Numbered from the stretch's first letter, positions 22,476 through 37,580 are shown. The stretch: DNA of 64,000 nucleotides from Bacillota bacterium (GCA_023441055.1 JAEZQY010000029.1:207328-271327), one strand, 5' to 3'. Translations and numbers: made by a program. Notes: generated by a model not told the origin, from the letters alone.

Positions 22476-22946
22476 TCATTCTTGTGTTAAATTTATAATG
22501 ACCTCTTTAGGAGTATAATAATCGCAATTTGTAATTACTTTAAATCCCTTGTCCCAGGTTAGCACAGGAATCCCTTGTTCCTTACTTATAACACTTAGTT
22601 TTATATCAATCAAATCCAGCTTAAGAGTCGGATACAACTTCAGAGTTTCACGTATTGTTGCACTTGCCTCAACACCGTCTGCTTCAATAAGAACTGTGAT
22701 CATCTTCGCAATTCTCTCACGAGGTACTTTATACATCTTTTCCATTACAAATACCATTTCTTCAACGACGGCATCAGAAAAGACAAGTATGATCTTACCT
22801 TCATTTATAAGTCGAACAAGCTGTTTTGTATAGGTGACCATACTTGTAATCATTTCCTCTTGCGCATCACTAACCGCTGCCGCAATATCTTGATCGCCAA
22901 CTAGAATTCTTAACCCTATGTTGGCATCTGCTGTGAACTTTCGCAT
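22476..22946 (-). CDS. PIN-domain (VapC-like) toxin
   Basis: N-terminal acidic motif (..TADANIGL..) and C-terminal ...LDLIDIKLSVISKEQGIPVLTWDKGF.... Lies 17 nt downstream of an AbrB-type antitoxin gene. Confidence 0.6.
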   Translation of the reverse strand: MRKFTADANIGLRILVGDQDIAAAVSDAQEEMITSMVTYTKQLVRLINEGKIILVFSDAVVEEMVFVMEKMYKVPRERIAKMITVLIEADGVEASATIRETLKLYPTLKLDLIDIKLSVISKEQGIPVLTWDKGFKVITNCDYYTPKEVIINLTQE

Positions 22947-22963
22947 AAAAATTTCTCCCCCTA

Positions 22964-23239
22964 TTATGTCTGACGGGCCAAGTCATCAGCAATCATCTCC
23001 TCACGGTATTGATCTCTGACTTCTCTTACGTCTATCAACGGTTGATCGAGATCATCCCAGATCCCAAACGCATCTAATATTGATTTTCTTTTAATGCCAC
23101 GAACAATTACTTCATCACCAATATATTCAAACTCTAACCTATCGCCCTCTCCAATACCGAGTATATTTCTAAGTTTAATAGGTATCGCAACAACTCCCTT
23201 AGCCGACAACTTTCCAGTCTCTACTTTGTAATTTTCCAT
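22964..23239 (-). CDS. AbrB/MazE/SpoVT-family antitoxin
   Basis: SpoVT-AbrB swapped-hairpin motif ...KGVVAIPIKLRNILGIGEGDRLEFEYIGDEVIV... Confidence 0.7.
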   Translation of the reverse strand: MENYKVETGKLSAKGVVAIPIKLRNILGIGEGDRLEFEYIGDEVIVRGIKRKSILDAFGIWDDLDQPLIDVREVRDQYREEMIADDLARQT

Positions 23240-23784: not shown

Positions 23785-26700
23785 TTATTCAGCTTGCCAC
23801 TGCTGAAGCAGCAGACTCGCCTGGTAGAACAAGTGTTGTCTTGCTAACGGAGAGAGCGTATCCTTCTTCGTCAGATGGTCAAGCTCACCCAAGAATTTAG
23901 TAATGAAATGAATCGCTTGCTTCGTTGATCCCTTCTCATCATGATGCTTGGCTTGCTTCAGGGCATTCTTCAATCGGTTAACAATCGAACCCGCCACATC
24001 GCCTGATTGGATATAGTCGTTCAACAAATTCTCCAGCACGGACAGGTCGCCCTGCTCGCCATCTACTGTATAGTATGCGTTTGGCACAGGTAGCTGCCTA
24101 TTCTGCACGTCATTACGGATGTCCTCACCTAGATAGAAGCCCAAGTGCGCTGGCTGGTTATACATCGCGTTCTGCGCGTTCACCGCCATCCGGTATAGCG
24201 GATCATGCATCAGTGTATAGATGACATGGTCCGTCGGAATATCGGTTGTATAGATTCTTAATGCGTTATTGTCGCTAGTACGAACAAGTACCTCGTCACG
24301 CCAGTCTCCGAGAATATCTGCGATCAGACTTGGATTCGCCTTCGTTCCATTGTTGGAGTAGGTTCCGGTCAATGCCTGAAGGGTCACCAGCTCGCTATGT
24401 CCAGTTGCGTTATCATAGATCAGCTTCGTGATGGATGGCGGTTGTGTAGCATTCAGATTATCTGGCCCATCGAAGAACTCGCTAAGCAGGTCACCGTCCC
24501 AATACAGGATGAAGTTAACAGGAGCCTTATTCGCCACTCCAATGTCCCCGACTTCGGTTGTAATCAGCTTGCCGCTCGCCATGTTATACATAGGTGTCCC
24601 TGACGCCCAAACCTCGAAGCCTGGCATCGCTGTTACATTCGCCGCAACACCGCGCCCAACATCACCTAGGTTTGCCGAATATGTCCACACAGGCTCCCCT
24701 GTAGAACCGCGAACCAAGCTTACGTTGTTCGGAGGCCCCGATTCATGCGGCTGGAACACATAGATCTCATTGCTGTCAGGCACCATTGCCGCTACATGCA
24801 GCGCATCGCCGTGGCCCCCAGCTACTGTACCTCTTGTTCCATTGGTGCTCCACACGATCGTGCCATCGTGGTCCAGTGTGATGCCACCAAGCACAACCTC
24901 CTGATACCCGTCAAAATCCAGATCGGCCACCTGCAGGTTATGATTGCCCTGATTATTGCCAGCGTTCCAATCCGCTAGCTTAAAGCTCCAAATCTCCACA
25001 ATTTCACCGTCGATGAACTGATAAGCTGCCACAAAGTGTGGACCATAGTGCCCGCGCACCTCAATAACTGTGGGATATGGCTCCGCGCCGGGCAGGCCAT
25101 TCTTCGGCATATAGGCCACCGCGCCATTGAAGCGGTCGCTGCGGTTATTGTTGTTATCACCCCAGTTGGGACTGATCGCATACGGTGCGAAGTAATCAAC
25201 GGTATCGACCGGCTGGCCAGTTCCACCATGGAATACTGTGAATGTTTCAGGTCCCGACGCCACTCTGCCAAGTGCCGTGTTATTGACCTGATTATCCATT
25301 GCCGGGTTCGCAAGTCCGCCTACCCATACCGCCGACGGATCACCCAATACCCATGCTGGTGTATCCGTGCGATCATCAATTGTGCCATCCGCTTTAGGCA
25401 GATATCCCCGGGTACCGTCGGCTGTCTTAATCGCCAGCTCAGCTATTCCATCCTGATCCAGATCATAGAAGTTAAATGCGCTGTGATGCGCACTGGACAC
25501 GATATTGATACCTAGGTTAATTCTCCAGAGCAGCTTGCCCTCAAGAGTATATAAGTCGAATATCGTCTCGCCGGTGTGTCGGTTGGCTAGGCCTGGGTCC
25601 TGCGCCTGAGACGGATACCATTTCACGAGAATCTCATACTGTCCATCGCCGTTAACATCCGCAACAGAGACATCATTAGCCGTGTAGGTAATCGGATCCG
25701 CATTGGATGTCGCGCCGTAAGCAAGCGCTGGGTTTGGCCGATCCGCTGGCCGCTGCAAGGGGATGTCCATATAATTATGGACCCATGTCTCCGCAGGCTT
25801 GCTAATTGCACCGGTGTTTACGGTCTCCACCACATAGCTGTCTCCTGCATGACCATCTGCATCCATATAATTAAGCGTTGTAATCGGAGATCCGTTGACC
25901 TTAACGCCATTTCTGTACACATTGAATGTTGCACCCATGTTGTATTCCGAAGCGAGCAGACGCCAAGTTACGAGTATGCCTTCCCCGCTGTTCTCAGGAA
26001 CGGCCACTACTCCTCTATCCAGCCATTCCATGGAGTATGGCAAGGAAGTGATCTTGTCCCGATGGCGGTTCTCAATGTGAAGCTTCGCCTTAAGCCCCAT
26101 TCTCTCGACTGCTACATCCGGGACACTGATCAGCGTCCCCTCGTAGGAGAACACACCCTGTTCATCCGGGTCATAGACCAATTCCGCTGGTATCTTGGAC
26201 CAAGGAACCTCTGTTAGCTCCCAGGTTACGCCTACCGATTCGGTACTGCCGCCTGCCACCTTAACGTTAACAGCTGTCGGCAGGTTAAGCCCTGACTCAT
26301 CGGCTACGTCTCCAATGTATACGGTCTTAAACCAGCTCTGCCACGAATTGCTGTCGGCCGCTCCTGGACGCTCCGGCAAGAAGTCATAGGGCAGCACTTC
26401 TGTTATCGTATCCTCTGATAGAGGCTTGGTGAAGAAATAGAGGTTATCTATACCATTATCCACAACATTGATATTCTGTGTGGCCGCGCGCTCGCCAGTA
26501 AGCACGAATGAACTGATTTGACTTCCCTCGAAGGGGAGCGACACCACCGATGGAGCCTCCGTAACGTCATCTCTCGGAACAAGGGAAACCGTCGCCATCA
26601 TCGTATCAAAATCAAACACAATGCCTACGGTATACCAGCTATCAACCTCCGTGTAATCAAAAGCATGATACCGTTCACCGCTCCAGAAGTTAGCGGGATT

Positions 26701-28218
26701 CGTGCCCGTCGGGCCCGGTAAATTCCCCGCGAACGCGCCTATCGTCCTTACGCCATTATAGGTGCCTGTTCTTAAACTTAACAGAACATTGGTCCCATCC
26801 TGGAAGCTTAGATTAAACGTATTCTGAGGGGTGGCAACTGCTGGAACCTTCCAGTCAAGATTCGCATATACCTTACTGCCGGAGACGGCATAAGGTAAAT
26901 CCCCTTTACCGCCGCGGTTACCCGAGCCGGACGCGTCAAATCTGAAGTAATAATTGGCTAGAGGCGCATCTTCCCTGGCAAGCGTATGGTAAGTGCCGCC
27001 GGCGAATATCCATAGCGGGCTGGCAGCATCTCCAGCGAAGTTGCTGCCGAACTCCAGCGTGTACCCTTCCGCTATCAGGGCGGAGAAGTCTGGGGTAGGT
27101 TCAGCTGTCGACGGAATATAGTGGACATGGATCGGTACGCTATCCGTGATGGCGTCATCCATATTGGATACAGCTGTAAGAATCGCATCCCCCTCGCCAA
27201 TCGCGGTAACCGTTACACTGTTATCCTCATTGACAACGATGGCTGCAATTTCTTCGTCACTGATCGACCACGTGAACGTCCTGTCGGTTGCATTAACCGG
27301 CATGACAACCGCGCTGAACGAGGCTGAATGCTTATCGGCCAGCGAACCTTCTCCATATTCCAAACTCGCGGAGGTCGGAGATATCGTTAGTTCGCTTGGG
27401 TTTATGATCGGTTCCTCTAAGCCGGACGAAGCAGCCTTGAATTGGATATTATCAACGCGCATCCCATAGGTGTTCTCATCCCATTCGATGCCCTCTACGG
27501 CATTAAATCTTGCCCAGTTCTGTCCGCTTGCCCTGCTCGCGCCTATCTGCATACTGGTCAAACTATCTGAGCCTATTGCGATTGGCTGCGGCGTGGTGTA
27601 TGTCCTCGCATCGCCATCAGTCATACTGATTGACGCCTCTTGTAACCGAAGATCAACATTCATCGTTACCGAAAGCTTCGTCAGGCGCGGTACTCCTGTT
27701 AGTGCCGTAGTGGCGCTTCCAACCGCTGGAGCATTATTAGCGGCCATGTTTCCTGTGTAATAAGATAAGGTCGCCGGCGAGTTTGCATTCGTACCACCTC
27801 CGGCGCTTCGGAGCGTTAGTACTTGATCATCGCCGCTGTTTAGCCGGACATCCAGTGAGTTAGCGCTAGGTCGGGTAATGTCCACCCACCAGTCGAAGGT
27901 TACTTCAACAAGATCGTTACCGGTTAGGTCATAATCGCCGCTATCAAGGGGCAGCGTCCACCAATAACTAGCCCCGCCGCTTGATGGAGGCTGTACACGA
28001 AGCACATTGGAGTCCATATTCTCCACCGTAATTGAACCAGGACCACTTGCTTCCGGAGCCCCGACCACTGTCCCTGCTAACTCTCCATCCTCAAATTGCA
28101 ATATGCTGCCCACTTGGATGAAATCAGGTGATGCACCCGATACCCATGCAGGCATAAGCATAATCACCAGTGAGAATGAGAGAAGTATAGCTGTATACCT
28201 CCTAAACCTTCCTTTCAT
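23785..28218 (-). CDS. multidomain secreted rhamnogalacturonan lyase (PL11, YesW-like) with long N-terminal extension, Big_2 domain and C-terminal helical (FIMAH-like) tail
   Basis: The core matches YesW-type beta-propeller sequence (...TANDVSVADVNGDGQYEILVKWYPS...WRINLGINIVSSAHHSAFNFYDLDQDGIAELAIKTADGT...). Big_2-like TFTWSISDEEIAAIVVNEDNSVTVTAIGEGDAIL. SD GGAG before the ATG at 28218, then a signal peptide. Confidence 0.8.
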   Translation of the reverse strand: MKGRFRRYTAILLSFSLVIMLMPAWVSGASPDFIQVGSILQFEDGELAGTVVGAPEASGPGSITVENMDSNVLRVQPPSSGGASYWWTLPLDSGDYDLTGNDLVEVTFDWWVDITRPSANSLDVRLNSGDDQVLTLRSAGGGTNANSPATLSYYTGNMAANNAPAVGSATTALTGVPRLTKLSVTMNVDLRLQEASISMTDGDARTYTTPQPIAIGSDSLTSMQIGASRASGQNWARFNAVEGIEWDENTYGMRVDNIQFKAASSGLEEPIINPSELTISPTSASLEYGEGSLADKHSASFSAVVMPVNATDRTFTWSISDEEIAAIVVNEDNSVTVTAIGEGDAILTAVSNMDDAITDSVPIHVHYIPSTAEPTPDFSALIAEGYTLEFGSNFAGDAASPLWIFAGGTYHTLAREDAPLANYYFRFDASGSGNRGGKGDLPYAVSGSKVYANLDWKVPAVATPQNTFNLSFQDGTNVLLSLRTGTYNGVRTIGAFAGNLPGPTGTNPANFWSGERYHAFDYTEVDSWYTVGIVFDFDTMMATVSLVPRDDVTEAPSVVSLPFEGSQISSFVLTGERAATQNINVVDNGIDNLYFFTKPLSEDTITEVLPYDFLPERPGAADSNSWQSWFKTVYIGDVADESGLNLPTAVNVKVAGGSTESVGVTWELTEVPWSKIPAELVYDPDEQGVFSYEGTLISVPDVAVERMGLKAKLHIENRHRDKITSLPYSMEWLDRGVVAVPENSGEGILVTWRLLASEYNMGATFNVYRNGVKVNGSPITTLNYMDADGHAGDSYVVETVNTGAISKPAETWVHNYMDIPLQRPADRPNPALAYGATSNADPITYTANDVSVADVNGDGQYEILVKWYPSQAQDPGLANRHTGETIFDLYTLEGKLLWRINLGINIVSSAHHSAFNFYDLDQDGIAELAIKTADGTRGYLPKADGTIDDRTDTPAWVLGDPSAVWVGGLANPAMDNQVNNTALGRVASGPETFTVFHGGTGQPVDTVDYFAPYAISPNWGDNNNNRSDRFNGAVAYMPKNGLPGAEPYPTVIEVRGHYGPHFVAAYQFIDGEIVEIWSFKLADWNAGNNQGNHNLQVADLDFDGYQEVVLGGITLDHDGTIVWSTNGTRGTVAGGHGDALHVAAMVPDSNEIYVFQPHESGPPNNVSLVRGSTGEPVWTYSANLGDVGRGVAANVTAMPGFEVWASGTPMYNMASGKLITTEVGDIGVANKAPVNFILYWDGDLLSEFFDGPDNLNATQPPSITKLIYDNATGHSELVTLQALTGTYSNNGTKANPSLIADILGDWRDEVLVRTSDNNALRIYTTDIPTDHVIYTLMHDPLYRMAVNAQNAMYNQPAHLGFYLGEDIRNDVQNRQLPVPNAYYTVDGEQGDLSVLENLLNDYIQSGDVAGSIVNRLKNALKQAKHHDEKGSTKQAIHFITKFLGELDHLTKKDTLSPLARQHLFYQASLLLQQWQAE

Positions 28219-28335
28219 ACGCTTCACTCCTCGTTTTAATAGATTTAGTGCTTGATACAAATTGTATCAATACGGAGTGTCGCAATTGAACTCAAAAATC
28301 AGTGAATCCCTATCAATAATCAGACATAGACCGAT

Positions 28336-29142
28336 TTACTTCATAGGCTGGCTGGATTGCATGGCATGACTCTTATAATCCGTAGGTGAGACACCGAACT
28401 GCTTCTTGAACATTCTGCTGAAGTAGAATTGATCACTGATTCCAACCGCTGAAGCGACCTCCTTCATATAGGTCTGGCCTTTCATAATTAATTCCGCTGC
28501 CTTGTTCATCCGTATATAATTGATATATTGAAATAAGCTCATCCCTACTTGCTCCCTGAATACGCGGCTCAAGTAGTTCTCGCTGAAATTAACATGATTC
28601 GCGATCATTTCTAATGTAAGCTTATCCCGGTAATGCAACCCGATATAGCTAATGACATCGGCAATTTCTTTCTTAGTCACAGTCGAATCAACAGCTCCAG
28701 GAGCATCTGTCCAGAAGCTCAGAGTATCAAAGGCTTCCACGGCGTTCGTTAATACCGCCTCTGAGCTTTTACTTTCCCATACCTTGGTTTTATTCGCCTC
28801 ATATTGCTCAGCATTCATCACTGTAATTTTATTGTCGCTTAGCGGGATATAATCCAAGCATTTGTTGATGCAGGTTTTCAGTGCCGAAGGATGAATCCGA
28901 TGCTGATGGCATTGTTCTATAAAGGTTTCTACCATCAGCGGAATAGAAGCACTATCATCATTATATAAAGAAGACAGAATGGATTTGGAGAAATCCACAT
29001 AGTTCATGAATGCGATGTCATGATGGAAGACGATGTCATCGCAACGGATAACGGAATGTTCTTCATAGAAGGTAATCGCGATAGCTTCTTTACAAGCCTG
29101 ATACTTCTGCCTAGCCTCTTGATAACCGTATAGCTCCAGTCT
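28336..29142 (-). pseudogene. AraC-family (possibly YesN-type) regulator, 5'-truncated
   Basis: The C-terminal AraC HTH is intact (...NYLSRVFREQVGMSLFQYINYIRMNKAAELI...ISDQFYFSRMFKKQFGVSPTDYK). The frame stays open 45 codons upstream of the listed ATG (29007) to a TGA at 29143-29145, with no start or RBS. Composition changes abruptly there. Confidence 0.6.
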
Positions 29143-29191
29143 TCATTGTTGGTGTGCTATTACGCATTGATTTTCCGCGCCTAGTGTATAT

Positions 29192-29316
29192 ATGTTAATG
29201 TCACAAGACGCGAAAATAGGAATGTTTGTGTCACAGGATCACTACAAAAACATTCCTACGTAAATAGTGGATAGCCATGATGTTATACTATTCTTAAAAT
29301 GTATGTTGGTGTCACT
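29192..29316 (+). repeat. three direct copies of ATGTTnnTGTCAC at the island's left edge, plus a 10-bp inverted repeat
   Basis: atgttaatgtcaca (29192), atgtttgtgtcaca (29222), atgttggtgtcact (29303). aggaatgttt/aaacattcct flank the second copy. A weaker copy, ttgttggtgtgcta, lies at about 29147. Confidence 0.6.
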
Positions 29317-29421
29317 GTATACCCCTTCACTCTTCATTATAAACAATAGTCCGATCCTAAATTGATAGATTTTCTAGTCCAGAACTTGTCCATAATCGCC
29401 AAATGCCTAAACAAATGATTC

Positions 29422-30108
29422 CTACCTGCTATCAAAATGGAGGTAAGCATGCTTAAGTTGTGCTTTATTATGAATATTTTTTTCTTGATAGTTTATATTG
29501 AAATTGTCGATGATTATGGCTGCCGCTTTTCCGCTTAAGTCTTCCTCCCACCCATCAACACCAAGTATTTCTTTAGCCTCTTCATCATTTGAAAAAACGA
29601 TGATTGGATCTCTTAAATCGTGGGATAATCTCGGCAAGTTGTTAGACGTGGCTTCATCAACTGTAAAGAGTAGCGTTCCCTCCCCTGTTGCATCAATATC
29701 TGTATACAGGAATTTTCCTGTTAAAATAGTTGTGCCAGTGAATTGAATAGTTCCAACTGGTATATCATCCGAATGAGATATGTTTAATTCCTCCACCTCC
29801 ATGCCGGCAATTGTGTTTCCCCTTTTTGTATTATTGGCGGAGAATATATTCGTATCATTAATGGTGATTGTTTTATCCGATTCATTATAATTTACTCTTG
29901 CACCTAGATTCTCAGCAATAAATCTTACAGGGACATACGCCCTATTATTGTAATTTATCGTTACATACCCTTCTTCTACATTCATTTTGTGATTATTTAT
30001 CTCGTATGAAACTGGGAAAAGAATTGCTTCTATAGAATCTTTAGCGTAAACAATTGATGAAGAAAATATAGTTACTAACCCAAGAACTAATAATATTTTA
30101 TTCTTCAT
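29422..30108 (-). CDS. secreted copper-amine-oxidase N-terminal (stalk) domain protein
   Basis: Signal peptide MKNKILLVLGLVTIFSSSIVYA|KD and ...NNRAYVPVRFIAENLGARVNYNESDKTITIN.... Start taken at the ATG at 30108. Confidence 0.65.
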   Translation of the reverse strand: MKNKILLVLGLVTIFSSSIVYAKDSIEAILFPVSYEINNHKMNVEEGYVTINYNNRAYVPVRFIAENLGARVNYNESDKTITINDTNIFSANNTKRGNTIAGMEVEELNISHSDDIPVGTIQFTGTTILTGKFLYTDIDATGEGTLLFTVDEATSNNLPRLSHDLRDPIIVFSNDEEAKEILGVDGWEEDLSGKAAAIIIDNFNINYQEKNIHNKAQLKHAYLHFDSR

Positions 30109-30124
30109 AATGGACCTCATTTCA

Positions 30125-31717
30125 TTATTTATAGAACAAATTGAAGGTTTTATCGATAATATTACCAAGTTCTTGGCCACGAACTTGATTTTCTAAAAAT
30201 TCAGCTATTTTAATATCGAAGTCTTCATCAATATTTTTTGAAAATGTACTGTTGAGGAATAAATCGTTATATTGTTCAGAGTCAGCTAAATTAAATAAAT
30301 CTAATATCTTATGATAAAACCATACCGAATCTAATGTTTCTTCGTTATTGATACCGGCCTGATAACCCCATTGTATCCAACTATCTTGCAATTTAACAGC
30401 ATTGTCAAACAGGGTAGGAAAAAGCATGGTTTTGAATTCTTCATATTCTTTTGACACATTGAAATCTTCTATTTCTGTGTACATATAATTTTTGTATTCA
30501 TTCCAATGAATATTAAAACTCTCCATCTGGTCTTTATCCCAGTAATATTCTGGTTCATGTGAACGTGGATCAAACTTGGAAATAGGTCTTCCCTCTTTAT
30601 CTACATAATAGGACCAGTAATTACTTCCAGTTACATTATTAATGATTCGCCATAAAGAAACACTTTCTAGTGAATGGTAATGATCAGTGGGAATCGGCTC
30701 TAAATCCTGGGAAATCAATATTTCATTTCGTCCCACAAGTTTTGGGGCGATTATTAAGTGAGCTTCATACTCATGTTCTTCACTTAAACTGTTTGTCCTG
30801 TGTATGGCATAAAAAGTAGTGTCATTTAAAGGTTCGGGGACAAATTCAATAAAGTCCTTTGAAACAAATCCCTCGTATTCATTTATAAAGGGGTTTTTCT
30901 CCATACTACTGTCGTGATCTTCCATCATAGATGTAGCATCTTCGTTTAATATATGAATGCGTATTTTATAATATTCTGTTCCTTCATCGGACAGGATGAT
31001 CCCGCTCTCTCCCCTCATTAACTCAAACCATTCCTCGGTTCCCTTAATATCTTTAAGAAAGGGAATGTTGTTGTCGTTGATATAAAATACTTTATCTTCG
31101 CCCTTATACTTTGGCATGATTAGGCTTTTTTCGCTCCTATCCACCTCGTTAATCCATGTTGTCTTCATCTGTGTAGTCAATTTATTCGGACTCAGAACTA
31201 GTTCTTTCGTGGATTCATATTTCGACCCATCGACAAACGTCAAGTTATCCGGGAGATAAAGTATTACAAGTTCAGGCGGCAAGGTTTGATTGATTGATCC
31301 TATTGATATTTTGTTATTATCTATCGAGTAAAAGTAATTATTTAGATTTGATTCGGAATTTTCCATTCCAATAGGTATATATCTCCCGCCCTGAAAAAAG
31401 TAAACCCCATAATCGGAGTTCTCCGCAATGTCTTGACCGAAAGTTATTTCAATTTTTTGATCCAAGGAGGAACTATAATTAATTATAGAATTATCAAAAT
31501 CATTGTCGTTATACAGCCCGTATTTAAACCCTGGGATTGTTATTGATACAATGCTCTTCCCTCTCTCGTCTTGTTGTGGGCTTACGCTTATCTCATTATG
31601 CTTAAGTTCCGACAATCTCGGGTAATAAAACACTAAAGTGCAAATAGCAACAATTGCTATGGAGATCCATATATATCTTTTATAGTTAATGATAATCCCT
31701 CCTCGTTCATACAACAA
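30125..31717 (-). CDS. N-terminally membrane-anchored hypothetical protein (about 530 aa), no recognisable family
   Basis: One TM helix (YIWISIAIVAICTLVFYY), then a Tyr/Asn/Glu/Asp-rich extracytoplasmic body. Long uninterrupted ORF within an operon. Start codon uncertain (see findings). Confidence 0.6.
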   Translation of the reverse strand: MLYERGGIIINYKRYIWISIAIVAICTLVFYYPRLSELKHNEISVSPQQDERGKSIVSITIPGFKYGLYNDNDFDNSIINYSSSLDQKIEITFGQDIAENSDYGVYFFQGGRYIPIGMENSESNLNNYFYSIDNNKISIGSINQTLPPELVILYLPDNLTFVDGSKYESTKELVLSPNKLTTQMKTTWINEVDRSEKSLIMPKYKGEDKVFYINDNNIPFLKDIKGTEEWFELMRGESGIILSDEGTEYYKIRIHILNEDATSMMEDHDSSMEKNPFINEYEGFVSKDFIEFVPEPLNDTTFYAIHRTNSLSEEHEYEAHLIIAPKLVGRNEILISQDLEPIPTDHYHSLESVSLWRIINNVTGSNYWSYYVDKEGRPISKFDPRSHEPEYYWDKDQMESFNIHWNEYKNYMYTEIEDFNVSKEYEEFKTMLFPTLFDNAVKLQDSWIQWGYQAGINNEETLDSVWFYHKILDLFNLADSEQYNDLFLNSTFSKNIDEDFDIKIAEFLENQVRGQELGNIIDKTFNLFYK

Positions 31718-31718
31718 T

Positions 31719-31748
31719 CATATAGGAGGGCATTCCCCCTCCTATATG
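31719..31748 (-). promoter_or_regulatory. intercistronic 12-bp-stem hairpin between the M23 gene and the 530-aa gene
   Basis: catataggaggg-(6 nt)-ccctcctatatg, followed on the minus strand by ATTGTTGTATG. Confidence 0.5.
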
Positions 31749-31784
31749 ATTCCTGGTTTACACAAATTCATCGTTTCTTAGGGA

Positions 31785-33092
31785 CTAGTGTTCTATATTC
31801 CTAATAAAATCTCCTTCTACATTAAGTCTAGTTTGATTCTTATCTTGGAAGTTTCCAGACACAAGGTATTCCTTACCTACGGAAAGCTCAGGGGCAAGAG
31901 CTGGGTATAACACATTAATGACATAGCTATCATCATTTGAAATTACTTCCCATTCATTTTCCCCTACATTTCTCACCAGTTCCACGCTGTTAATAAAATC
32001 GAACTCCAGGACGTTCACTGTATCAGGGATGTCCACTTTAACTGGTTCTACTGCAGTGGCATACATAGATTCCGTATAGATATCGGAGTTAGCACCCTTC
32101 GCTAGCAATGAAGTGCTTACAAAGAATGGTCTATCCGTAGGGGCCTGATTATCATACCGGTATGGTCTATATCCTGTATAATATGTTGTCCCATTATACG
32201 AGTTGTTCTCTGCCTCGACGTAGTATTGGAGGGTATCAGAGGTCCCATAGAGAGGTGTTAAGTTGCCTGTAAATGTGATATCATCTGATGCTACCGTCAT
32301 AGATGTACTACTCCATGATGTCATGTTACCATTTTTATAGAACAGCTTTACCTTACTCGGAGGGGATGTTCTTAAGACACCACTATAAATTGACTGGATT
32401 TGAAACGTTACCGACGATGAACTTGCTGCTGTTCTTGTTATAAAGGACATCTTATTTGCATAACTTCCACCCTTATGTTGGTAGAAGTATGATGGCGCAT
32501 ATCTTTTCATGGTATTTGTATCAGTAGCTGAGGCACCTCTAAATTCTAAATGCAAGTGAATCGGATAAGAGCTCTCCGTTGTGCCTGATCCACCTGTTTG
32601 ACCAATATTCGTTGTATTTGTTACGGAAGTAGCGCTAGTAACGTTAACACTTGCTAAATGTGCATAAAAAGACTGCACATAGTAATCTGTTCCCCCAGAG
32701 GTTACTTTGTGTTGGACAAGGGCATATCTACCATATGTGCTTCCTAATGTAGTCCTTAATTGGTAGACCTCCCCGTTCCCTAGAACACTGAAAGCATCTC
32801 TACCAGCCGTTCCTGTAGCATTCCTTGAACGTAAATCAACACCAGCATGACCGGATGTTCGGGGCTCGCTATATGGTGCAGTAATAACTACATCATCGTC
32901 GGTGCCTGTACCTGTGTCTCCAACTCTTAATGCGCTCTTCGCATTAATTGTTACTGAACTAATTGTAGGATACCCTGACTCTGATACTTCATCCGCTTCC
33001 ATGAATAGGTGTGCTGCGAAACCCGCTGAAGGGAAAACTGAAATAACCATTAATAGTACCATTAAGAAAGAAAAAGCATGACGAATTTTCAT
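31785..33092 (-). CDS. secreted M23-family metallopeptidase with unassigned ~250-aa C-terminal extension
   Basis: HxxxD (GHAGVDL), YAHL, and HxH (IHLHLEF) motifs. Signal peptide ...VFPSAGFA|AH. SD GGAGG before the ATG at 33092. Confidence 0.75.
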   Translation of the reverse strand: MKIRHAFSFLMVLLMVISVFPSAGFAAHLFMEADEVSESGYPTISSVTINAKSALRVGDTGTGTDDDVVITAPYSEPRTSGHAGVDLRSRNATGTAGRDAFSVLGNGEVYQLRTTLGSTYGRYALVQHKVTSGGTDYYVQSFYAHLASVNVTSATSVTNTTNIGQTGGSGTTESSYPIHLHLEFRGASATDTNTMKRYAPSYFYQHKGGSYANKMSFITRTAASSSSVTFQIQSIYSGVLRTSPPSKVKLFYKNGNMTSWSSTSMTVASDDITFTGNLTPLYGTSDTLQYYVEAENNSYNGTTYYTGYRPYRYDNQAPTDRPFFVSTSLLAKGANSDIYTESMYATAVEPVKVDIPDTVNVLEFDFINSVELVRNVGENEWEVISNDDSYVINVLYPALAPELSVGKEYLVSGNFQDKNQTRLNVEGDFIRNIEH

Positions 33093-33575
33093 CTTCAATT
33101 CCTCCATCTTCATTTTTTTAAAAACTCCCAACTTCGCTCTTAACCAGATGAAAGGGCAGCTATAAACCTTTGTTATCCATTCGCATGACCCCCAATTATC
33201 ATTTATTAGGCGACTGGAAAGTGTGAAACTAAATTATGACGGCCTTACTTATATAGACTTATGGTTCGTCTCCCTTATAACGTTTTCATAACTAATTACT
33301 ATTCTAAACAATGTCCATCTTCTAATAGTGTTTCTATCATGCAATCGTTCCGACAGAAGAATAACGAATCATTGCCGCAATATGAAGATTGTAAACTCAG
33401 ATCATAAGGGGAACTACCCGAAGGAATATTGTATTATATATTTAACATCAAGCTATAAAGTCCAAACTATAATATCATTATATGTAATTGGGTCATTCTC
33501 GAAATATTGGTGTGATTTTGATCTCTCATATTCATATTCTTATTTAGAATTAAGAGAAGGGACAGTGCTAATGAA

Positions 33576-34142
33576 ATGAAATGGTACTACCTGCTACATC
33601 AATTAGATACTCTTCCTTCAGAAATACAGAAGACTATTTACCAGTATTTTTTTGATGCGTTTTATAAAGATGTGTACTATATCCTGAAGGATCACTCACT
33701 AACGGAAGATATAATTCAAGAATCTTTTATGAAAGTAATAACAACATCGCAGAAGTATGAGGTGAAAAACCCCAGTTCATGGATGAAACAGGTGGTTCGG
33801 AATCACACAATAGATTATTTAAAGAAAGTAAAAAAAGTGCGTTATTCAGAGGAGTATAATGACATCTCTATAACTGAGGACTATTTATTTGACAATGATT
33901 CGCTCTTCGTCGAGGATGAAGTTGAGAAATCCCTTGAAATCGAAGCATTACGCCACTCTATACTTGAATTGAAACAAGACTATCAACTATTAATTAAGCT
34001 TCACTATATTGATGAACTGTCTTATAAAGAGATTGCAACGACATTGAATTTATCAGAACCAGCAGTAGGCCAAAAACTACTCCGTGCAAGAAAGAAGCTG
34101 TTAAAGATTTTTAAACGGAAATGGGTGAACGGTAGTGAGTAA
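33576..34142 (+). CDS. ECF-type sigma-70 factor
   Basis: Region 2 (...HSLTEDIIQESFMKVI...W..QVVRNHTIDYLKK) and region 4 (...LIKLHYIDELSYKEIATTLNLSEPAVGQKLLRARKKL). Confidence 0.8.
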   Translation: MKWYYLLHQLDTLPSEIQKTIYQYFFDAFYKDVYYILKDHSLTEDIIQESFMKVITTSQKYEVKNPSSWMKQVVRNHTIDYLKKVKKVRYSEEYNDISITEDYLFDNDSLFVEDEVEKSLEIEALRHSILELKQDYQLLIKLHYIDELSYKEIATTLNLSEPAVGQKLLRARKKLLKIFKRKWVNGSE

Positions 34143-34911
34143 TAACAAGTCTCACAGAGAAGAGTTAATCAAAGAGGTAATACAGCGAATTTACGATGAG
34201 ATTGAAGTACCAGATAGTACAGCGTCATGGAAAGTAATTGAGAAACGCTTGAAGAGAAGAAAGCGTGTTAAAAGAAGTATGAGAATGTTGCAATTAAGTA
34301 GTGTTATTATTATATGTGCATTTATGATGAATTTATTATGGATGGCCGTGTTACCTACAGCCCACTCGCAAATTTCAGAGTTATTTAAAAAGATGAACGA
34401 CAATTTCACGGAAATCTTCCACAAGGATACGAAGCAACCTTCTATCGATAAGGCTAGAACAACAGTACCCCCAGATGATTCAAATGATGGAAGTGCGGAT
34501 AATAATTCGATTAAAGATGTCTCCTTTGAGTATGCAAAGGATAGAACATCGTTTCGACTAAAGGAGCCTACTTACATTCCAAAAGGTTATGAGGTAGAGG
34601 TTGTGCGTGCATTTGAAAGTTCCGGAGTAATCAGCAATGTTCAAATGAAATATAGTAATTCAGACCAAGAAGTGATAACTATAATGCAACAAAAGGTTGA
34701 AGCTGATTCGCATACTCCAATTAAATCTACAATTGCTGTTGATTCGGGTACTTTCAAAGATGTCACTATTAATAATAGTCGGGCAATACTACTGATAGCG
34801 AACAAAGGGAACTCCGTTATAGAATGGGTCGAGGAAGGTGAAATAATTATACGTATATCTGGGGCATTAACAGAAACAGAAATCATTAAGATTGCTTCTT
34901 CATTACAATGA
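34135..34911 (+). CDS. single-pass anti-sigma factor with DUF4367-like extracytoplasmic domain
   Basis: GTG start overlaps the sigma stop by 8 nt. Short cytoplasmic N-terminus, one TM helix (LQLSSVIIICAFMMNLLWMAVL), and a C-terminal domain with ...LKEPTYIPKGYEV.... Confidence 0.65.
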   Translation: MSNNKSHREELIKEVIQRIYDEIEVPDSTASWKVIEKRLKRRKRVKRSMRMLQLSSVIIICAFMMNLLWMAVLPTAHSQISELFKKMNDNFTEIFHKDTKQPSIDKARTTVPPDDSNDGSADNNSIKDVSFEYAKDRTSFRLKEPTYIPKGYEVEVVRAFESSGVISNVQMKYSNSDQEVITIMQQKVEADSHTPIKSTIAVDSGTFKDVTINNSRAILLIANKGNSVIEWVEEGEIIIRISGALTETEIIKIASSLQ

Positions 34912-35037
34912 GAAGGAGGATATCCCCTAGGGGTTCTGATAGTTTTTTAATTGAAGAGAAACATGCATTCCGTTCCCTTTAGATGATTCCCTAGAATAAG
35001 TACCCGCTTTTTGGTGATTTACTTATACAAATAGTTG

Positions 35038-35063
35038 ATTCCCCGCAGTAAGCTGCGGGGAAT
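35038..35063. terminator. hairpin between convergent genes
   Basis: attccccgcag-taag-ctgcggggaat. Confidence 0.5.
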
Positions 35064-35076
35064 CATAAAGGAAAGA

Positions 35077-35544
35077 TCAGTCAACCACAAGTAGCGACGA
35101 GGTATACCTCACCCCATCCTCAAGGACATTATTATACTCAACCCAATGAGTCGTTTTTATTCGGTAATAATAACCAGTTAATACATTTATCTTTCTACTG
35201 GAGAATGAATAGGAATCGTTATAAAAAACAGAGTTAGCCCCAAAATCCTCATTGATCCACACACTACCAGTCCATCTTTGTAAGGTGACCTGGACTCCAA
35301 CCACATCCACATCAAATGTAGCAAACGTGTGTCCATAAACGCTCACCTCTCCATCACCCAAATCGAACATCCCCCCATATCCATCTTCCAAGTAGTCATA
35401 GCTTGGATCGAAAATAGTGTAAGGCATATAATTTGGTGGTGGTCCCGTCAACGGTTGAGTTGTCGAGGCAATTGCCTGCGTGGGGACAATTAGTGCAAAT
35501 GCAATCGTAATTCCAATGAATAACTTCACATACTTGTGTGACAA
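35077..35544 (-). CDS. small secreted beta-rich hypothetical protein
   Basis: Signal peptide ...LIVPTQAIA|ST. No family recognised. Confidence 0.5.
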   Translation of the reverse strand: MSHKYVKLFIGITIAFALIVPTQAIASTTQPLTGPPPNYMPYTIFDPSYDYLEDGYGGMFDLGDGEVSVYGHTFATFDVDVVGVQVTLQRWTGSVWINEDFGANSVFYNDSYSFSSRKINVLTGYYYRIKTTHWVEYNNVLEDGVRYTSSLLVVD

Positions 35545-35765
35545 TTAAATCCCTCCTCAAAATGTGCTTACATAAATATAAGACGGCGCATTTCGAGGTT
35601 ATATAACGATATTAATCAGGAAAATGTTAAAAATATTTTATCCATCATGAAATGGTATGAATAAATAGTTTTCATGGAAACTAGGTAGCACTTTCGCATC
35701 CCATACAACAAAACCCTAGTAATAATTTCATTTGCGTTTGAGGCGTCAATTTGATTAATCCCTCA

Positions 35766-36083
35766 CTAGAAAAATACTTGTATAATCCATCTAGCGTGAA
35801 TGACCATAATGAGGATGTAAACGAAAATGATAACTCGCAATAGCCATAAGAATAAAACACTTAAAAACTTAACTTCTTCAAATTTATAGGAAAACATCCC
35901 CACACCAAACATGATAGCTGATATCCATATCTTCAGAAATAGAAAACTTAGGGGATGCGTGAATAACAAGGAGTTCATAAACGGGTTCATTTCAATCATA
36001 TATCCGCTAACATAGCCCAAATACGACACGACTCCATCAAGAACGTTTAATAGTGCAAACACGAAAAACAACCTCTTCAACAT
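35766..36083 (-). CDS. DUF5658-family small membrane protein
   Basis: ...LLNVLDGVVSYLGYVSGYMIEMNPFM... with 3-4 TM helices. Confidence 0.55.
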   Translation of the reverse strand: MLKRLFFVFALLNVLDGVVSYLGYVSGYMIEMNPFMNSLLFTHPLSFLFLKIWISAIMFGVGMFSYKFEEVKFLSVLFLWLLRVIIFVYILIMVIHARWIIQVFF

Positions 36084-36109
36084 AAAGTATCAGCTCTCTT
36101 ATAACTTTA

Positions 36110-36757
36110 GTTTTCTCAATCACAAAACAAACTGGCGACATCCTTATTCATATATTCAAAGTTGCACTGAGCCCTCCATGCTTTTTCTAACCAAATCGTT
36201 TACTTATAGAATAGGCCAGTCGGGCTGTAGAACATCGGCATCAAGTACGTTTTACCGTCGTTATAGGGATTCGTAATTGTCGTGTCTGTGAATCCAGGAA
36301 TGATCTTCTCACTTACAGTGAACTCCTCACCAGGTACCTTCATAGCGAGTACATCCGTCAGATCCGTCATATTGTTATCCTTGACGAAGGTTTCTGTAAG
36401 CCCTTTCGGTTGACCTACTGCTAAATGGATAGCGTCTGGGAAATCACCGGATTTCATCGTTGGTCCGATAACATCCTCGATGTTCTTCTCAATGGTCATC
36501 TCAACCTTGACACCAGGAACCTTGCTCTCGAATGCAGCGGCTACTTCTTCCCATACCGCCTTACCATAAGCCGTCTCCAGTGCCGCGAACTTCATTGTGC
36601 GAACCTCATTAGAGGAACCATTAGACGAGCCGTTCGATGAGCTATTAGCTGGGTTGCTTGATGAATTGCTTTGCTCTGAATTGCCATTCGATGAACCACA
36701 AGCGGCCAGCATAACTACCATCATCACCGCAAGTACTAAGGCTGCCATCTTTTTCAT
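36110..36757 (-). pseudogene. N-terminal fragment of a family-1 sugar ABC substrate-binding lipoprotein (inverted relative to its C-terminal half)
   Basis: SD GAGGAGG, MKKMAALVLAVMMVVMLAAC|GSS lipobox, Ser/Asn linker, and N-lobe to ...YLMPMFYSPTGLFYK-TAA. The same frame continues SBP-like (TIWLEKAW..NFEYM..). Confidence 0.7.
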
Positions 36758-36827
36758 TCTGTTACCCTCCTCGATTTTTGGAATAACGAATACCGTGCTA
36801 TTCATTCCTCTCTACTTTCACTATCAG

Positions 36828-37580
36828 ATTACCTTTACAAAATCATATCCGGAATACTTGGAGGAAATCCTATATCCATCACTGGCGAATGCCGCTGGCC
36901 TTGCACAGCTGAAGAGAATTTATGCATTCGAGCCCGGCTCCTTTCAGACTGCGTCTGTAAAAAAGGTGTTGGACACGATTGCCAGGATCGGAAACGGTGG
37001 GTATTTGATGGAGGGGACAGTCGGACTTAATCACACCCAATCCCAAACCGATATGATGCTTGGCAAAGCCATATTCATCGTGAATGGTTCATGGATGGAG
37101 AATGAAATGAAGGATGCGCCAAGAGAAGAGGGCTTCGAATTCGGGATGATTCCTGTGCCTGTGTTCAATGCAGGGGATGAACGTTATATCCTTTCTAGTT
37201 ATGAGCAATTCTCTATCCCGCTTAAGGCCAAGAACCCTGAGCTTGCGAAGGAGTTCTTGAAGTTTCTGTACACCGAGGAATCCGTCATCTTATTCGCAGA
37301 GAAGTCCAACGGTACCTTCGCGCTGAAAGGAGCGCAGGAGCTTTCGCGAAACTATCTCACCCCTGGTGTGTATGATATGCTCAGCGCTTATGAAGGAGCG
37401 ACGGCTATTACGCAGGAATGGCATATTATCCCTATGCAATTCAAGGAGGATATTCGAAATCAATTGTTCAAAAAAGCGATAACGCCGATTATGACAGGAC
37501 AAATGACCACGGAGGAATGGATGAATCAAGTGGAGAAGGCGTTTGCCGACATCCAATCCACGATGAACACACCGCAATAA
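36828..37580 (+). pseudogene. C-terminal fragment of the same substrate-binding protein
   Basis: ITFTKSYPEYLEEILYPSLANAAG...GTVGLNHTQSQTDMMLGKAIFIVNGSWMENEMKDAP...NPELAKEFLKFLYTEES.... No start, RBS or signal peptide. The listed ORF's first ~75 codons are antisense read-through of the N-fragment. Confidence 0.7.

What the first reader, a model, noticed from the sequence alone, without database searches (positions are those of the whole stretch)
29146..36110. AT-rich island encoding only envelope proteins under an ECF sigma/anti-sigma pair: candidate undescribed envelope or antagonism module
All seven ORFs are exported, membrane-bound or regulatory. An ECF sigma is translationally coupled (8-nt overlap) to a single-pass anti-sigma with a DUF4367-like ectodomain. 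A three-gene operon runs divergently from them. Its first gene is an M23 metallopeptidase (HAGVD, HLHLE) with a ~250-aa C-terminal half I cannot assign. Its second is a 530-aa N-terminally anchored Tyr/Asn/Glu-rich protein with no recognisable family. Its third is a copper-amine-oxidase-stalk-domain protein. A 155-aa secreted beta-rich protein and a DUF5658 membrane protein lie beyond the anti-sigma. There are no metabolic, phage or transfer genes. M23 enzymes include bacteriolysins such as lysostaphin and zoocin, which travel with dedicated immunity functions. A foreign-composition block combining such a peptidase with orphan envelope proteins and its own extracytoplasmic sensor looks like a self-contained acquired system. 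It could serve cell-wall attack with immunity, or envelope remodelling. I do not recognise it as a described system.
Basis: inference. Interest (0 to 1): 0.7.

Follow-up and report, generated by a model that had tools for sequence, protein, structure and literature searches.

The report
Rare M23 wall-peptidase plus membrane-partner module
An AT-rich, apparently acquired 7-kb block carries a rare gene pair conserved across Bacillota, a secreted cell-wall-cutting M23 peptidase and a large membrane-tethered partner of unknown family, next to its own envelope-sensing sigma/anti-sigma switch; only the pair and, once more, the switch recur elsewhere, not the whole block.

Summary
All seven ORFs, their domains, the 8-nt sigma/anti-sigma overlap and the GC drop (36.5% against 48.4%) are present.

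The block is not a seven-gene system. The conserved unit is two genes: an M23 peptidase with all catalytic residues, plus Ig-like and OB-like C-terminal domains, followed by a membrane- or lipid-anchored partner of about 530 aa. A confident AF2 model of the partner (pLDDT 88) shows a beta domain, an SH3-like domain and a helical bundle. It has no Pfam, PDB or viral match.

The partner family has only 24 representatives among 1.84 billion protein clusters. In six independent loci (GC 28-49%, partner identity down to 19-23%) the M23 gene lies immediately upstream. A seventh locus keeps only an M23 remnant. One further locus has an ECF sigma and a DUF4367 anti-sigma directly upstream of the partner, so that link recurs once. 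The copper-amine-oxidase-stalk, 155-aa and DUF5658 genes do not recur.

The block abuts a 5'-truncated regulator gene and a split, half-inverted sugar-binding-protein gene. No phage, plasmid or integrase signal was found.

Best reading: an accessory, inducible cell-wall-remodelling hydrolase held or controlled by its membrane partner. The main rival is a bacteriolysin with an immunity protein. This is an uncharacterised variant of a known theme and of moderate interest.

The parts
29146..36200 (.). AT-rich block (36.5% GC, against 48.4% in the rest of the window).
   Evidence: Composition profiles and the GC computation. It is bounded on the left by a stop codon that ends a start-less regulator reading frame. 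It is bounded on the right by the cut end of a sugar-binding-protein fragment.
31785..33092 (-). Secreted M23 metallopeptidase (435 aa; the ORF is open up to 33131). Domains: signal peptide, conserved acidic N-terminal stretch, M23 domain, beta-sandwich (about 230-340) and OB-like barrel (about 379-445). First gene of the conserved pair.
   Evidence: Pfam PF01551, 28.3 bits. The family profile hits solved M23 enzymes at E 3.5e-10. H95, D99, H158, H192 and H194 are invariant. The AF2 model has confident C-terminal domains. Foldseek gives IF1-like OB matches with TMt up to 0.69 at E about 1e-2.
31716..31751 (-). Perfect 15-bp hairpin between the M23 stop and the partner start. It could be an attenuator or an mRNA-stabilising element.
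   Evidence: the repeat finder pair I9 and the sequence itself. Function not tested.
30125..31717 (-). Membrane-anchored partner protein (up to 530 aa; the true start is probably near 31690). Domains: TM helix 12-40, beta domain 56-176, SH3-like domain about 197-292, small beta unit 302-334 and helical bundle 344-528. Second gene of the conserved pair.
   Evidence: No Pfam or NCBIfam hit. Only 24 relatives among 1.84e9 representatives. AF2 model with pLDDT 88.2 and pTM 0.84. No PDB or BFVD whole-chain match; only SH3 and Ig domain-level hits. Weak SH3_3 hits in family members. W447 and W450 are invariant; E351, H387, N298 and P296 are nearly so.
29422..30108 (-). Secreted copper-amine-oxidase-stalk-domain protein (228 aa). 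It is the third gene of the operon in this genome only.
   Evidence: Pfam PF07833, E 1.6e-9. It starts 16 nt after the partner stop. It is absent from all related loci.
29217..29258 (-). Hairpin followed by TTTT on the minus strand, downstream of the three-gene operon. Probable terminator.
   Evidence: the repeat finder pair I10 and the sequence itself. Inference.
33093..33575 (.). Divergent intergenic region between the M23 operon and the sigma gene. It presumably holds both promoters.
   Evidence: Sequence. No convincing shared ECF-type motif was found.
33576..34142 (+). ECF-type sigma factor (188 aa).
   Evidence: Pfam Sigma70_r2, r4_2 and Sigma70_ECF. NCBIfam TIGR02937, 88.5 bits, above its cut-off; no equivalog reached.
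34135..34911 (+). Single-pass anti-sigma factor (258 aa) with an extracytoplasmic DUF4367 (LolA-like) domain. It overlaps the sigma gene by 8 nt.
   Evidence: Pfam PF14285, E 6e-13. Coordinates. The LolA-like nature of DUF4367-bearing proteins is from bioRxiv 10.1101/2025.01.13.632879.
35036..35065 (-). 13-bp GC-rich hairpin between the convergent anti-sigma and 155-aa genes. Terminator-like.
   Evidence: Terminator scan.
35077..35544 (-). 155-aa secreted protein of unknown family. A passenger of the block, not linked to the pair elsewhere.
   Evidence: No Pfam, PDB, PHROG or PADLOC hit. Absent from related loci.
35766..36083 (-). DUF5658 small multi-pass membrane protein. A passenger of the block.
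   Evidence: Pfam PF18902, E 2.5e-13. Absent from related loci.
28336..29142 (-). Left flank: AraC-type HTH regulator. Its reading frame stays open for 45 codons upstream of the first ATG, with no start codon, up to the edge of the block. Probably the 5'-truncated remnant of a YesN-type response regulator.
   Evidence: Frame translation. The best solved relatives of the HTH are two-component response regulators, including YesN. The truncation is inferred.
36200..37580 (.). Right flank: one sugar-binding-protein gene split into an inverted N-terminal half (36757->36200, minus strand) and a C-terminal half (36822-37580, plus strand). About 40 residues are missing.
   Evidence: The halves match residues 30-167 and 207-434 of the same solved protein, 9h0n_A (E 1.8e-39 and 1e-27). 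The same arrangement is present in L001 and L007.

Best explanation
The functional core is a two-gene extracytoplasmic peptidoglycan-hydrolase module.

**The two proteins**
- Gene 1 is a secreted, catalytically competent M23 endopeptidase. It carries an Ig-like beta-sandwich and an OB-like barrel in place of the usual SH3b or LysM targeting domains.
- Gene 2 is a large partner held on the outer face of the membrane by an N-terminal helix (a lipobox in distant relatives). Its ectodomain is a beta domain, an SH3-like domain and a conserved helical bundle.

**Proposed mechanism (inferred)**
- The partner binds the peptidase at the producer's own membrane-proximal wall.
- There it positions the peptidase or gates its activity. 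This would be an accessory autolysin with a dedicated membrane-tethered regulator.
- It resembles ActH-LytH, SweCD-CwlO or FtsEX-EnvC in logic, not in sequence.

**In this genome**
- The pair arrived inside a low-GC block. The block replaced host DNA between a response-regulator gene and a sugar-binding-protein gene.
- The pair lies back to back with an ECF sigma and a DUF4367 anti-sigma. That pair probably switches on the M23 operon when its LolA-like ectodomain senses an envelope cue.
- This is analogous to sigma-I/RsgI control of the endopeptidase LytE in Bacillus subtilis.

**Shown**
- Gene content and intact catalytic motifs.
- The partner's architecture and its rarity.
- Conserved gene order across deep divergence.
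- A second sigma/anti-sigma-partner linkage.
- Compositional foreignness and disrupted flanking genes.

**Inferred**
- Physical interaction between the two proteins.
- Action in cis on the producer's own wall.
- Control of the M23 operon by the ECF sigma.
For: **Conserved pairing**
- M23 homologues at 57, 49, 36 and 33% identity are each followed at once by a partner homologue at 36, 36, 19 and 23% identity. The loci are L002/L003/L015, L004, L005 and L011.
- L008 carries the end of an M23-family gene upstream of its partner.
- L009 carries an M23 C-terminal remnant upstream of its partner.
- The loci range from 28 to 49% GC and sit in unrelated neighbourhoods.

**Domain sharing**
- The L004 partner ends in the same OB-like domain that ends the M23 protein: 38% identity, E 2e-4. 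This suggests a common target or mutual binding.

**Protein features**
- The M23 active-site residues are all invariant, and the family profile matches solved active M23 enzymes.
- The partner is membrane-tethered and has an SH3-like domain. Relatives have a lipobox.

**Sigma/anti-sigma link**
- In L010 a sigma fragment and a DUF4367 anti-sigma lie directly upstream of a partner homologue, in the same direction.
- LolA-like proteins related to those that carry DUF4367 regulate wall hydrolases in spore-formers, for example GerS-CwlD.

**Block edges**
Against: - No interaction or regulation was tested.
- No shared ECF-type promoter motif was found in the divergent region or upstream of the other genes of the block.
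- Most M23-partner loci have no sigma/anti-sigma. ECF control is therefore at best a local add-on.
- Some distant partner homologues have no M23 gene directly upstream (L010, L014). Others are instead linked or fused to a DUF5050 propeller.
- The rare, patchy distribution fits an antagonism or immunity pair at least as well as a cell-wall housekeeping function.
- The M23 model is poor over the catalytic domain (pLDDT 50.8 overall).
Confidence: 0.45

Rival explanations
1. Bacteriolysin plus immunity. The M23 enzyme is a secreted weapon against neighbouring Gram-positive bacteria. The membrane-tethered partner is a new kind of extracytoplasmic immunity protein that captures or blocks the enzyme at the producer's surface. 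The ECF pair induces the weapon or the protection under envelope attack.
For: - The M23 active site is intact and the enzyme has its own signal peptide.
- The pair is rare, patchy and context-independent, and here it has foreign composition.
- The partner diverges faster than the enzyme: 36% against 57%, and 19% against 36%. This is common for immunity genes.
- Zoocin A and lysostaphin are among the solved relatives of the catalytic domain.
Against: - No FemABX-like immunity gene is present. That is the only immunity type described for M23 bacteriolysins in the M23 review PMC9662197, which cites Zif.
- At 500-830 aa with four domains, the partner is far larger than known hydrolase immunity proteins (own knowledge).
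- There is no secretion, processing or quorum-sensing gene in the block, and no plasmid or phage link.
- Some family members occur without M23 or are fused to a propeller.
Confidence: 0.3
2. Sporulation- or germination-linked wall module. The pair remodels cortex or germ-cell wall in endospore formers, and the partner anchors the enzyme to a spore membrane.
For: - All the loci appear to come from Bacillota. Several lie beside sporulation-related genes: spoVK-like AAA and hfq-hflX in L004, yqfC/yqfD in L013, DUF421/DUF4363 in L009.
- DUF4367 occurs in the B. subtilis protein SsdC, which the paper treats as the GerS orthologue. GerS activates the germination amidase CwlD in C. difficile.
Against: - The family is far too rare to be a conserved sporulation function: 24 representatives, and one related locus among the GTDB species representatives.
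- The neighbouring genes are not conserved between loci.
- No sporulation-sigma promoter was identified, and control by an ECF sigma is atypical for sporulation genes.
Confidence: 0.1
3. The block is a mosaic of unrelated envelope genes. Apart from M23 and its partner, the genes have no functional connection, and the sigma/anti-sigma pair regulates something else.
For: - The stalk, 155-aa and DUF5658 genes are absent from every related locus.
- No shared promoter motif was found.
- Most M23-partner pairs lack a sigma/anti-sigma.
Against: - A sigma with a DUF4367 anti-sigma lies directly upstream of a partner homologue in the unrelated locus L010, at 28% GC. By my rough estimate a chance repeat is unlikely, because such regulator pairs are a very small fraction of genes.
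- The whole block shares one low-GC composition.
Confidence: 0.15

Closest known systems
Lysostaphin/Lif and zoocin A/Zif (M23 bacteriolysins with FemABX-like immunity)
   Same: A secreted M23 endopeptidase with intact Zn and catalytic motifs, encoded next to a dedicated second gene on acquired DNA.
   Different: The second gene here is an extracytoplasmic, membrane-tethered multi-domain protein. It is not a cytoplasmic FemABX-type cross-bridge modifier. The enzyme has Ig-like and OB-like domains instead of an SH3b or TRD domain. There is no plasmid context.
Sigma-I/RsgI control of LytE in Bacillus subtilis (own knowledge)
   Same: An alternative sigma factor, held by a single-pass anti-sigma with an extracytoplasmic sensor domain, is linked to a peptidoglycan endopeptidase gene.
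   Different: The sigma is a true ECF type. The anti-sigma ectodomain is DUF4367 (LolA-like), not the RsgI domain. The hydrolase is M23, not NlpC/P60. Regulation is not shown here.
Membrane-protein-controlled hydrolases: ActH-LytH, SweCD-CwlO, FtsEX-EnvC/PcsB (own knowledge)
   Same: A wall hydrolase is paired with a membrane-anchored partner that positions or activates it.
   Different: There is no sequence or fold relation. The partner here has one anchor and a large ectodomain. EnvC-type LytM factors have lost their catalytic residues, whereas this M23 keeps all of them.
GerS-CwlD (C. difficile) and SsdC (B. subtilis) (bioRxiv 10.1101/2025.01.13.632879)
   Same: A LolA-like protein, carrying a DUF4367 domain in the Bacilli orthologue SsdC, is functionally tied to a peptidoglycan hydrolase in a spore-former.
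   Different: There the LolA-like protein is a lipoprotein activator of an amidase. Here DUF4367 is the ectodomain of an anti-sigma factor, and the hydrolase is an M23 peptidase.

Membership tests
Peptidase family M23 (PF01551) | H(x)nD and HxH zinc/catalytic motifs, plus a further His about 30 residues before HxH (PMC9662197). | tested here: met
   H95-x3-D99, H158, H192-x-H194. All are invariant in six homologues. Feature definitions.
Peptidase family M23 (PF01551) | Sequence match to the family model above the curated threshold. | tested here: inconclusive
   The window protein scores 28.3 bits against a gathering score of 28.7. However, the L011 homologue scores 47.2 bits, and the family profile hits solved M23 enzymes at E 3.5e-10.
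M23 bacteriolysin with FemABX-type immunity (lysostaphin/zoocin type) | An adjacent FemABX-like immunity gene. | tested here: not met
   No gene in the block or in the related loci has such a domain.
M23 bacteriolysin with FemABX-type immunity (lysostaphin/zoocin type) | A C-terminal SH3b or TRD wall-targeting domain on the enzyme. | tested here: not met
   The C-terminal half is a beta-sandwich and an OB-like barrel. The SH3-like domain is on the partner instead.
M23 bacteriolysin with FemABX-type immunity (lysostaphin/zoocin type) | Lytic activity on other species, with the producer protected. | not testable with these tools
   Needs enzyme assays.
ECF sigma / anti-sigma pair | The sigma has regions 2 and 4 only. 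A co-transcribed membrane anti-sigma lies immediately downstream. | tested here: met
   Pfam r2 and r4_2 hits, and TIGR02937 above its cut-off. The genes overlap by 8 nt, and the anti-sigma has one hydrophobic span followed by DUF4367.
ECF sigma / anti-sigma pair | An autoregulatory ECF-type promoter shared with the target genes. | tested here: inconclusive
   No consistent AAC...CGT-type motif upstream of the sigma gene, the M23 operon, the 155-aa gene or the DUF5658 gene. Only one genome was available.
Degenerate LytM factors (EnvC, NlpD, SpoIIQ) | Loss of the metal-binding and catalytic residues. | tested here: not met
   All the residues are retained. The match to SpoIIQ is only E 0.45.
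Classical genomic island | Composition that deviates from the host. | tested here: met
   36.5% against 48.4% GC.
Classical genomic island | An integrase or transposase, a tRNA target, and flanking direct repeats. | tested here: not met
   No such genes, no tRNA and no terminal repeats. Instead both edges abut truncated or rearranged host genes.

The most novel reading that the evidence does not exclude
The partner family is a previously unrecognised class of extracytoplasmic, membrane-tethered proteins that bind M23 peptidases. It would act as an immunity or gating factor. The DUF4367 anti-sigma would sense the enzyme's action or its muropeptide products, giving a self-contained sense-and-cut (or sense-and-protect) envelope module that moves horizontally among Bacillota.
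Probability: 0.25. Interest if true: 0.65.

Novelty: new variant of a known kind. Interest (0 to 1): 0.45.

Why it matters
M23 peptidases are being developed as enzybiotics, and how Gram-positive cells restrain or aim them is only partly understood. This work defines a conserved but very rare enzyme-partner pair whose partner has a confidently predicted, unmatched architecture. That gives a concrete candidate for a new way of tethering, gating or neutralising a wall hydrolase. The recurring ECF sigma/DUF4367 anti-sigma link also offers a possible handle on what LolA-like anti-sigma ectodomains sense. The scope is limited: the family is tiny and no function has been shown.

Tried and rejected
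**Homologue searches**
- Word-indexed searches with the 530-aa protein and with its four-sequence profile returned only the protein itself. The exhaustive HMMER search was needed.
- The pattern scan of GTDB genomes found no relative of the partner. For the M23 C-terminal domain it found one locus. Three alignments were too divergent to scan with.
- Phage, plasmid and IMG/VR searches were all negative.
- PADLOC gave no hit. PHROGs gave only generic M23 hits.

**Structure tools**
It worked with proteins from the representatives search.

**Specific leads**
- L006 (Clostridiales MAG; M23 31% identical): the next ORF is not a partner relative.
- L012: the fragment upstream of the partner looks like the OB-like M23 tail by eye. 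It did not score above shuffled controls, so I did not count it.
- ECF-promoter motif search: nothing consistent.
- Terminal repeats of the block: none.
- I considered that the partner's helical domain, with its 'LES' motif, could be lysozyme- or transglycosylase-like. No Foldseek support appeared, so I dropped the idea.

Full report
**1. Observation**

Pfam results:
- 29422-30180(-): copper-amine-oxidase N-terminal (stalk) domain.
- 31785-33131(-): M23 domain at 28.3 bits, just under the gathering score of 28.7.
- 33576-34142(+): sigma-70 regions 2 and 4.
- 34135-34911(+): DUF4367.
- 35766-36083(-): DUF5658.
- The 530-aa and 155-aa proteins: nothing.

NCBIfam places the sigma in the ECF superfamily model only, with no equivalog. 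The sigma and anti-sigma genes overlap by 8 nt.

GC falls to 27-43% between about 29.1 and 36.2 kb, against about 48-53% on either side. The block is 36.5% GC and the rest of the window 48.4%.

Small corrections:
- The M23 gene most likely starts at 33092 (435 aa).
- The stalk gene most likely starts at 30108.
- The partner's start is ambiguous. A strong GGAGGG lies inside the 530-aa ORF, 6 nt before an ATT. Most homologues begin at that alignment position.

**2. What recurs elsewhere**

The 530-aa protein is nearly an orphan.
- Two word-indexed searches found only the protein itself.
- An exhaustive HMMER scan of 1.84 billion cluster representatives found 24 relatives, four of them below E 1e-30.
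- The only source name found among the ten partner clusters looked up is 'hypothetical protein'.

The M23 protein has six relatives in the 5.8-billion-cluster index.

Gene order is conserved. The M23 gene lies immediately upstream of a partner homologue in each of these loci:

| Locus | M23 identity | Partner identity |
|---|---|---|
| L002/L003/L015 | 57% | 36% |
| L004 | 49% | 36% |
| L005 (Paenibacillus sp. GSMTC-2017) | 36% | 19% (hhalign probability 99.9, E 7e-33) |
| L011 | 33% | 23% |
| L008 | contig-cut M23 tail with the family's YRPYRY...APTDRPF signature | 34% |

- L009 keeps only a C-terminal M23 remnant upstream of its partner.
- These loci span 28-49% GC. Where the contigs are long enough to show neighbours (L002, L004, L005, L009), the neighbourhoods are unrelated.
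- The pair is therefore a real functional unit and not a local accident.
- L010 has the 3' end of an ECF sigma gene and a DUF4367 anti-sigma directly upstream of a partner homologue, in the same direction. The sigma/anti-sigma link seen in the window thus recurs once, independently.
- The stalk protein, the 155-aa protein and the DUF5658 protein were found in none of the related loci.
- Distant partner homologues can also be followed by a DUF5050 propeller (L012) or fused to one (L014/P0023).
- A more distant M23 relative, L006 at 31% identity, is not followed by a partner.

**3. Anatomy of the two proteins**

M23 peptidase:
- H95-x3-D99, H158 and H192-x-H194 are invariant. These are the defining residues of active M23 enzymes (PMC9662197).
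- The family profile matches solved M23 peptidases at E 3.5e-10. ShyA, zoocin A and lysostaphin are among the hits.
- The AF2 model is poor overall (pLDDT 50.8). It is confident for a beta-sandwich at about 230-340 and a small barrel at about 379-445.
- Foldseek relates the barrel to IF1-type OB folds and the sandwich to Ig-like domains, at weak E-values. The profile search gives the same Ig-like hint.

Partner:
- AF2 with the 24-sequence family alignment gives a confident model, pLDDT 88.2 and pTM 0.84.
- Its layout is an N-terminal membrane helix, a beta domain, an SH3-like domain, a small beta unit and a helical bundle of about 185 residues.
- Distant relatives replace the helix with a lipobox.
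- No whole-chain match exists in PDB or BFVD. Only SH3 and Ig domain-level similarities appear.
- The most conserved positions are P296, N298, E351, H387, W393, Y408, W447 and W450.
- The L004 partner carries at its C-terminus the same OB-like domain that ends the M23 protein (38% identity, E 2e-4). This shuffling between the two genes argues for a common target or for mutual contact.

**4. The block and its edges**

- There is no integrase, transposase, tRNA or terminal repeat.
- There is no phage, plasmid or viral relative.
- Left edge: the AraC-type regulator's frame stays open for 45 codons beyond its first ATG, without a start codon. It stops exactly where the AT-rich DNA begins. Its HTH is closest to YesN-type response regulators, which suggests a 5'-truncated gene.
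- Right edge: two fragments in opposite orientation match residues 30-167 and 207-434 of one solved sugar-binding protein. This is one gene, split, half-inverted and missing about 40 residues.
- The same arrangement is present in two other assemblies that carry the block.
- In the other loci the pair is only 2-4 GC points below its flanks. I infer that this block came from a lower-GC Bacillota donor and replaced host DNA.

**5. Mechanism**

Best supported (confidence 0.45):
- An accessory wall hydrolase whose membrane-tethered partner positions or gates it at the producer's own wall.
- In this genome it is wired to an ECF envelope sensor.
- The conserved order, the shared OB-like domain, the membrane tether and the SH3-like domain on the partner (not on the enzyme) all favour a cis-acting, partner-dependent enzyme.
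- LolA-like proteins, which in Bacilli carry a DUF4367 domain, are already tied to hydrolase control in spore-formers.

Main rival (confidence 0.30):
- A bacteriolysin with a new kind of surface immunity protein.
- It fits the rarity, the patchiness and the faster divergence of the partner.
- It lacks a FemABX-type immunity gene and any export or quorum-sensing genes. The partner is also unusually large for an immunity protein.

Minor rivals:
- A sporulation or germination role (0.10).
- A purely mosaic block (0.15).

I could not find a shared ECF promoter. Sigma control of the operon therefore remains an inference from position and from L010.

**6. Comparison and novelty**

- The enzyme is a divergent member of family M23.
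- The regulator pair is a standard ECF sigma with a DUF4367 anti-sigma.
- The partner family has no Pfam, NCBIfam, PDB or BFVD counterpart, and the only source name seen for it is 'hypothetical protein'.
- A hydrolase paired with a dedicated membrane partner, and a sigma/anti-sigma controlling a hydrolase, are both known themes. I therefore rate this as a new variant of a known kind.
- It is of moderate interest. It gives a concrete, testable new enzyme-partner pair, but the family is tiny and no function has been demonstrated.

Noticed in passing
window 36200-37580: One sugar ABC-transporter binding-protein gene is split. Its N-terminal half is inverted (36757->36200, minus strand) and lies head-to-head with its C-terminal half (36822-37580, plus strand). 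About 40 residues are missing. Both halves match the same solved protein, 9h0n_A.
   Followed up: yes
window 28336-29142 (-): The AraC-type regulator's reading frame continues for 45 codons upstream of its first ATG, without a start codon, and ends exactly at the edge of the AT-rich block. It is probably the 5'-truncated remnant of a YesN-type response regulator.
   Followed up: partly
window 31688-31751 (-): A perfect 15-bp hairpin lies just upstream of the partner ORF. A strong GGAGGG lies inside the annotated ORF, 6 nt before ATT/ATC codons. Most homologues start at the position that aligns with that ATT. This suggests either a non-canonical start codon or a mis-set start. NCBI's 502-aa version would cut the membrane helix.
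   Followed up: partly
L004 13066-13263; window 31794-31985: The OB-like C-terminal domain of the M23 protein also occurs at the C-terminus of the partner protein in locus L004 (38% identity). L008's M23 appears, by eye from its translation, to carry two copies in tandem.
   Followed up: partly
L012 2755-3810; L014 743-3250: Distant partner homologues are followed by a DUF5050 beta-propeller protein (L012) or fused to one (L014). This is a second, M23-independent association of the partner family.
   Followed up: partly
window about 22476-23239 (-): A MazE-like antitoxin / PIN-domain toxin pair lies in another low-GC patch (40-43% GC) between the rhamnogalacturonan lyase gene and a deaminase gene. 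Coordinates are mapped from locus L001.
   Followed up: no
window 23785-28260 (-): A very large secreted protein (1491 aa) lies immediately left of the block. It has rhamnogalacturonan-lyase and FIMAH domains. With the beta-galactosidase and AraC regulators, it indicates a plant-polysaccharide utilisation neighbourhood typical of Paenibacillus-like genomes.
   Followed up: no
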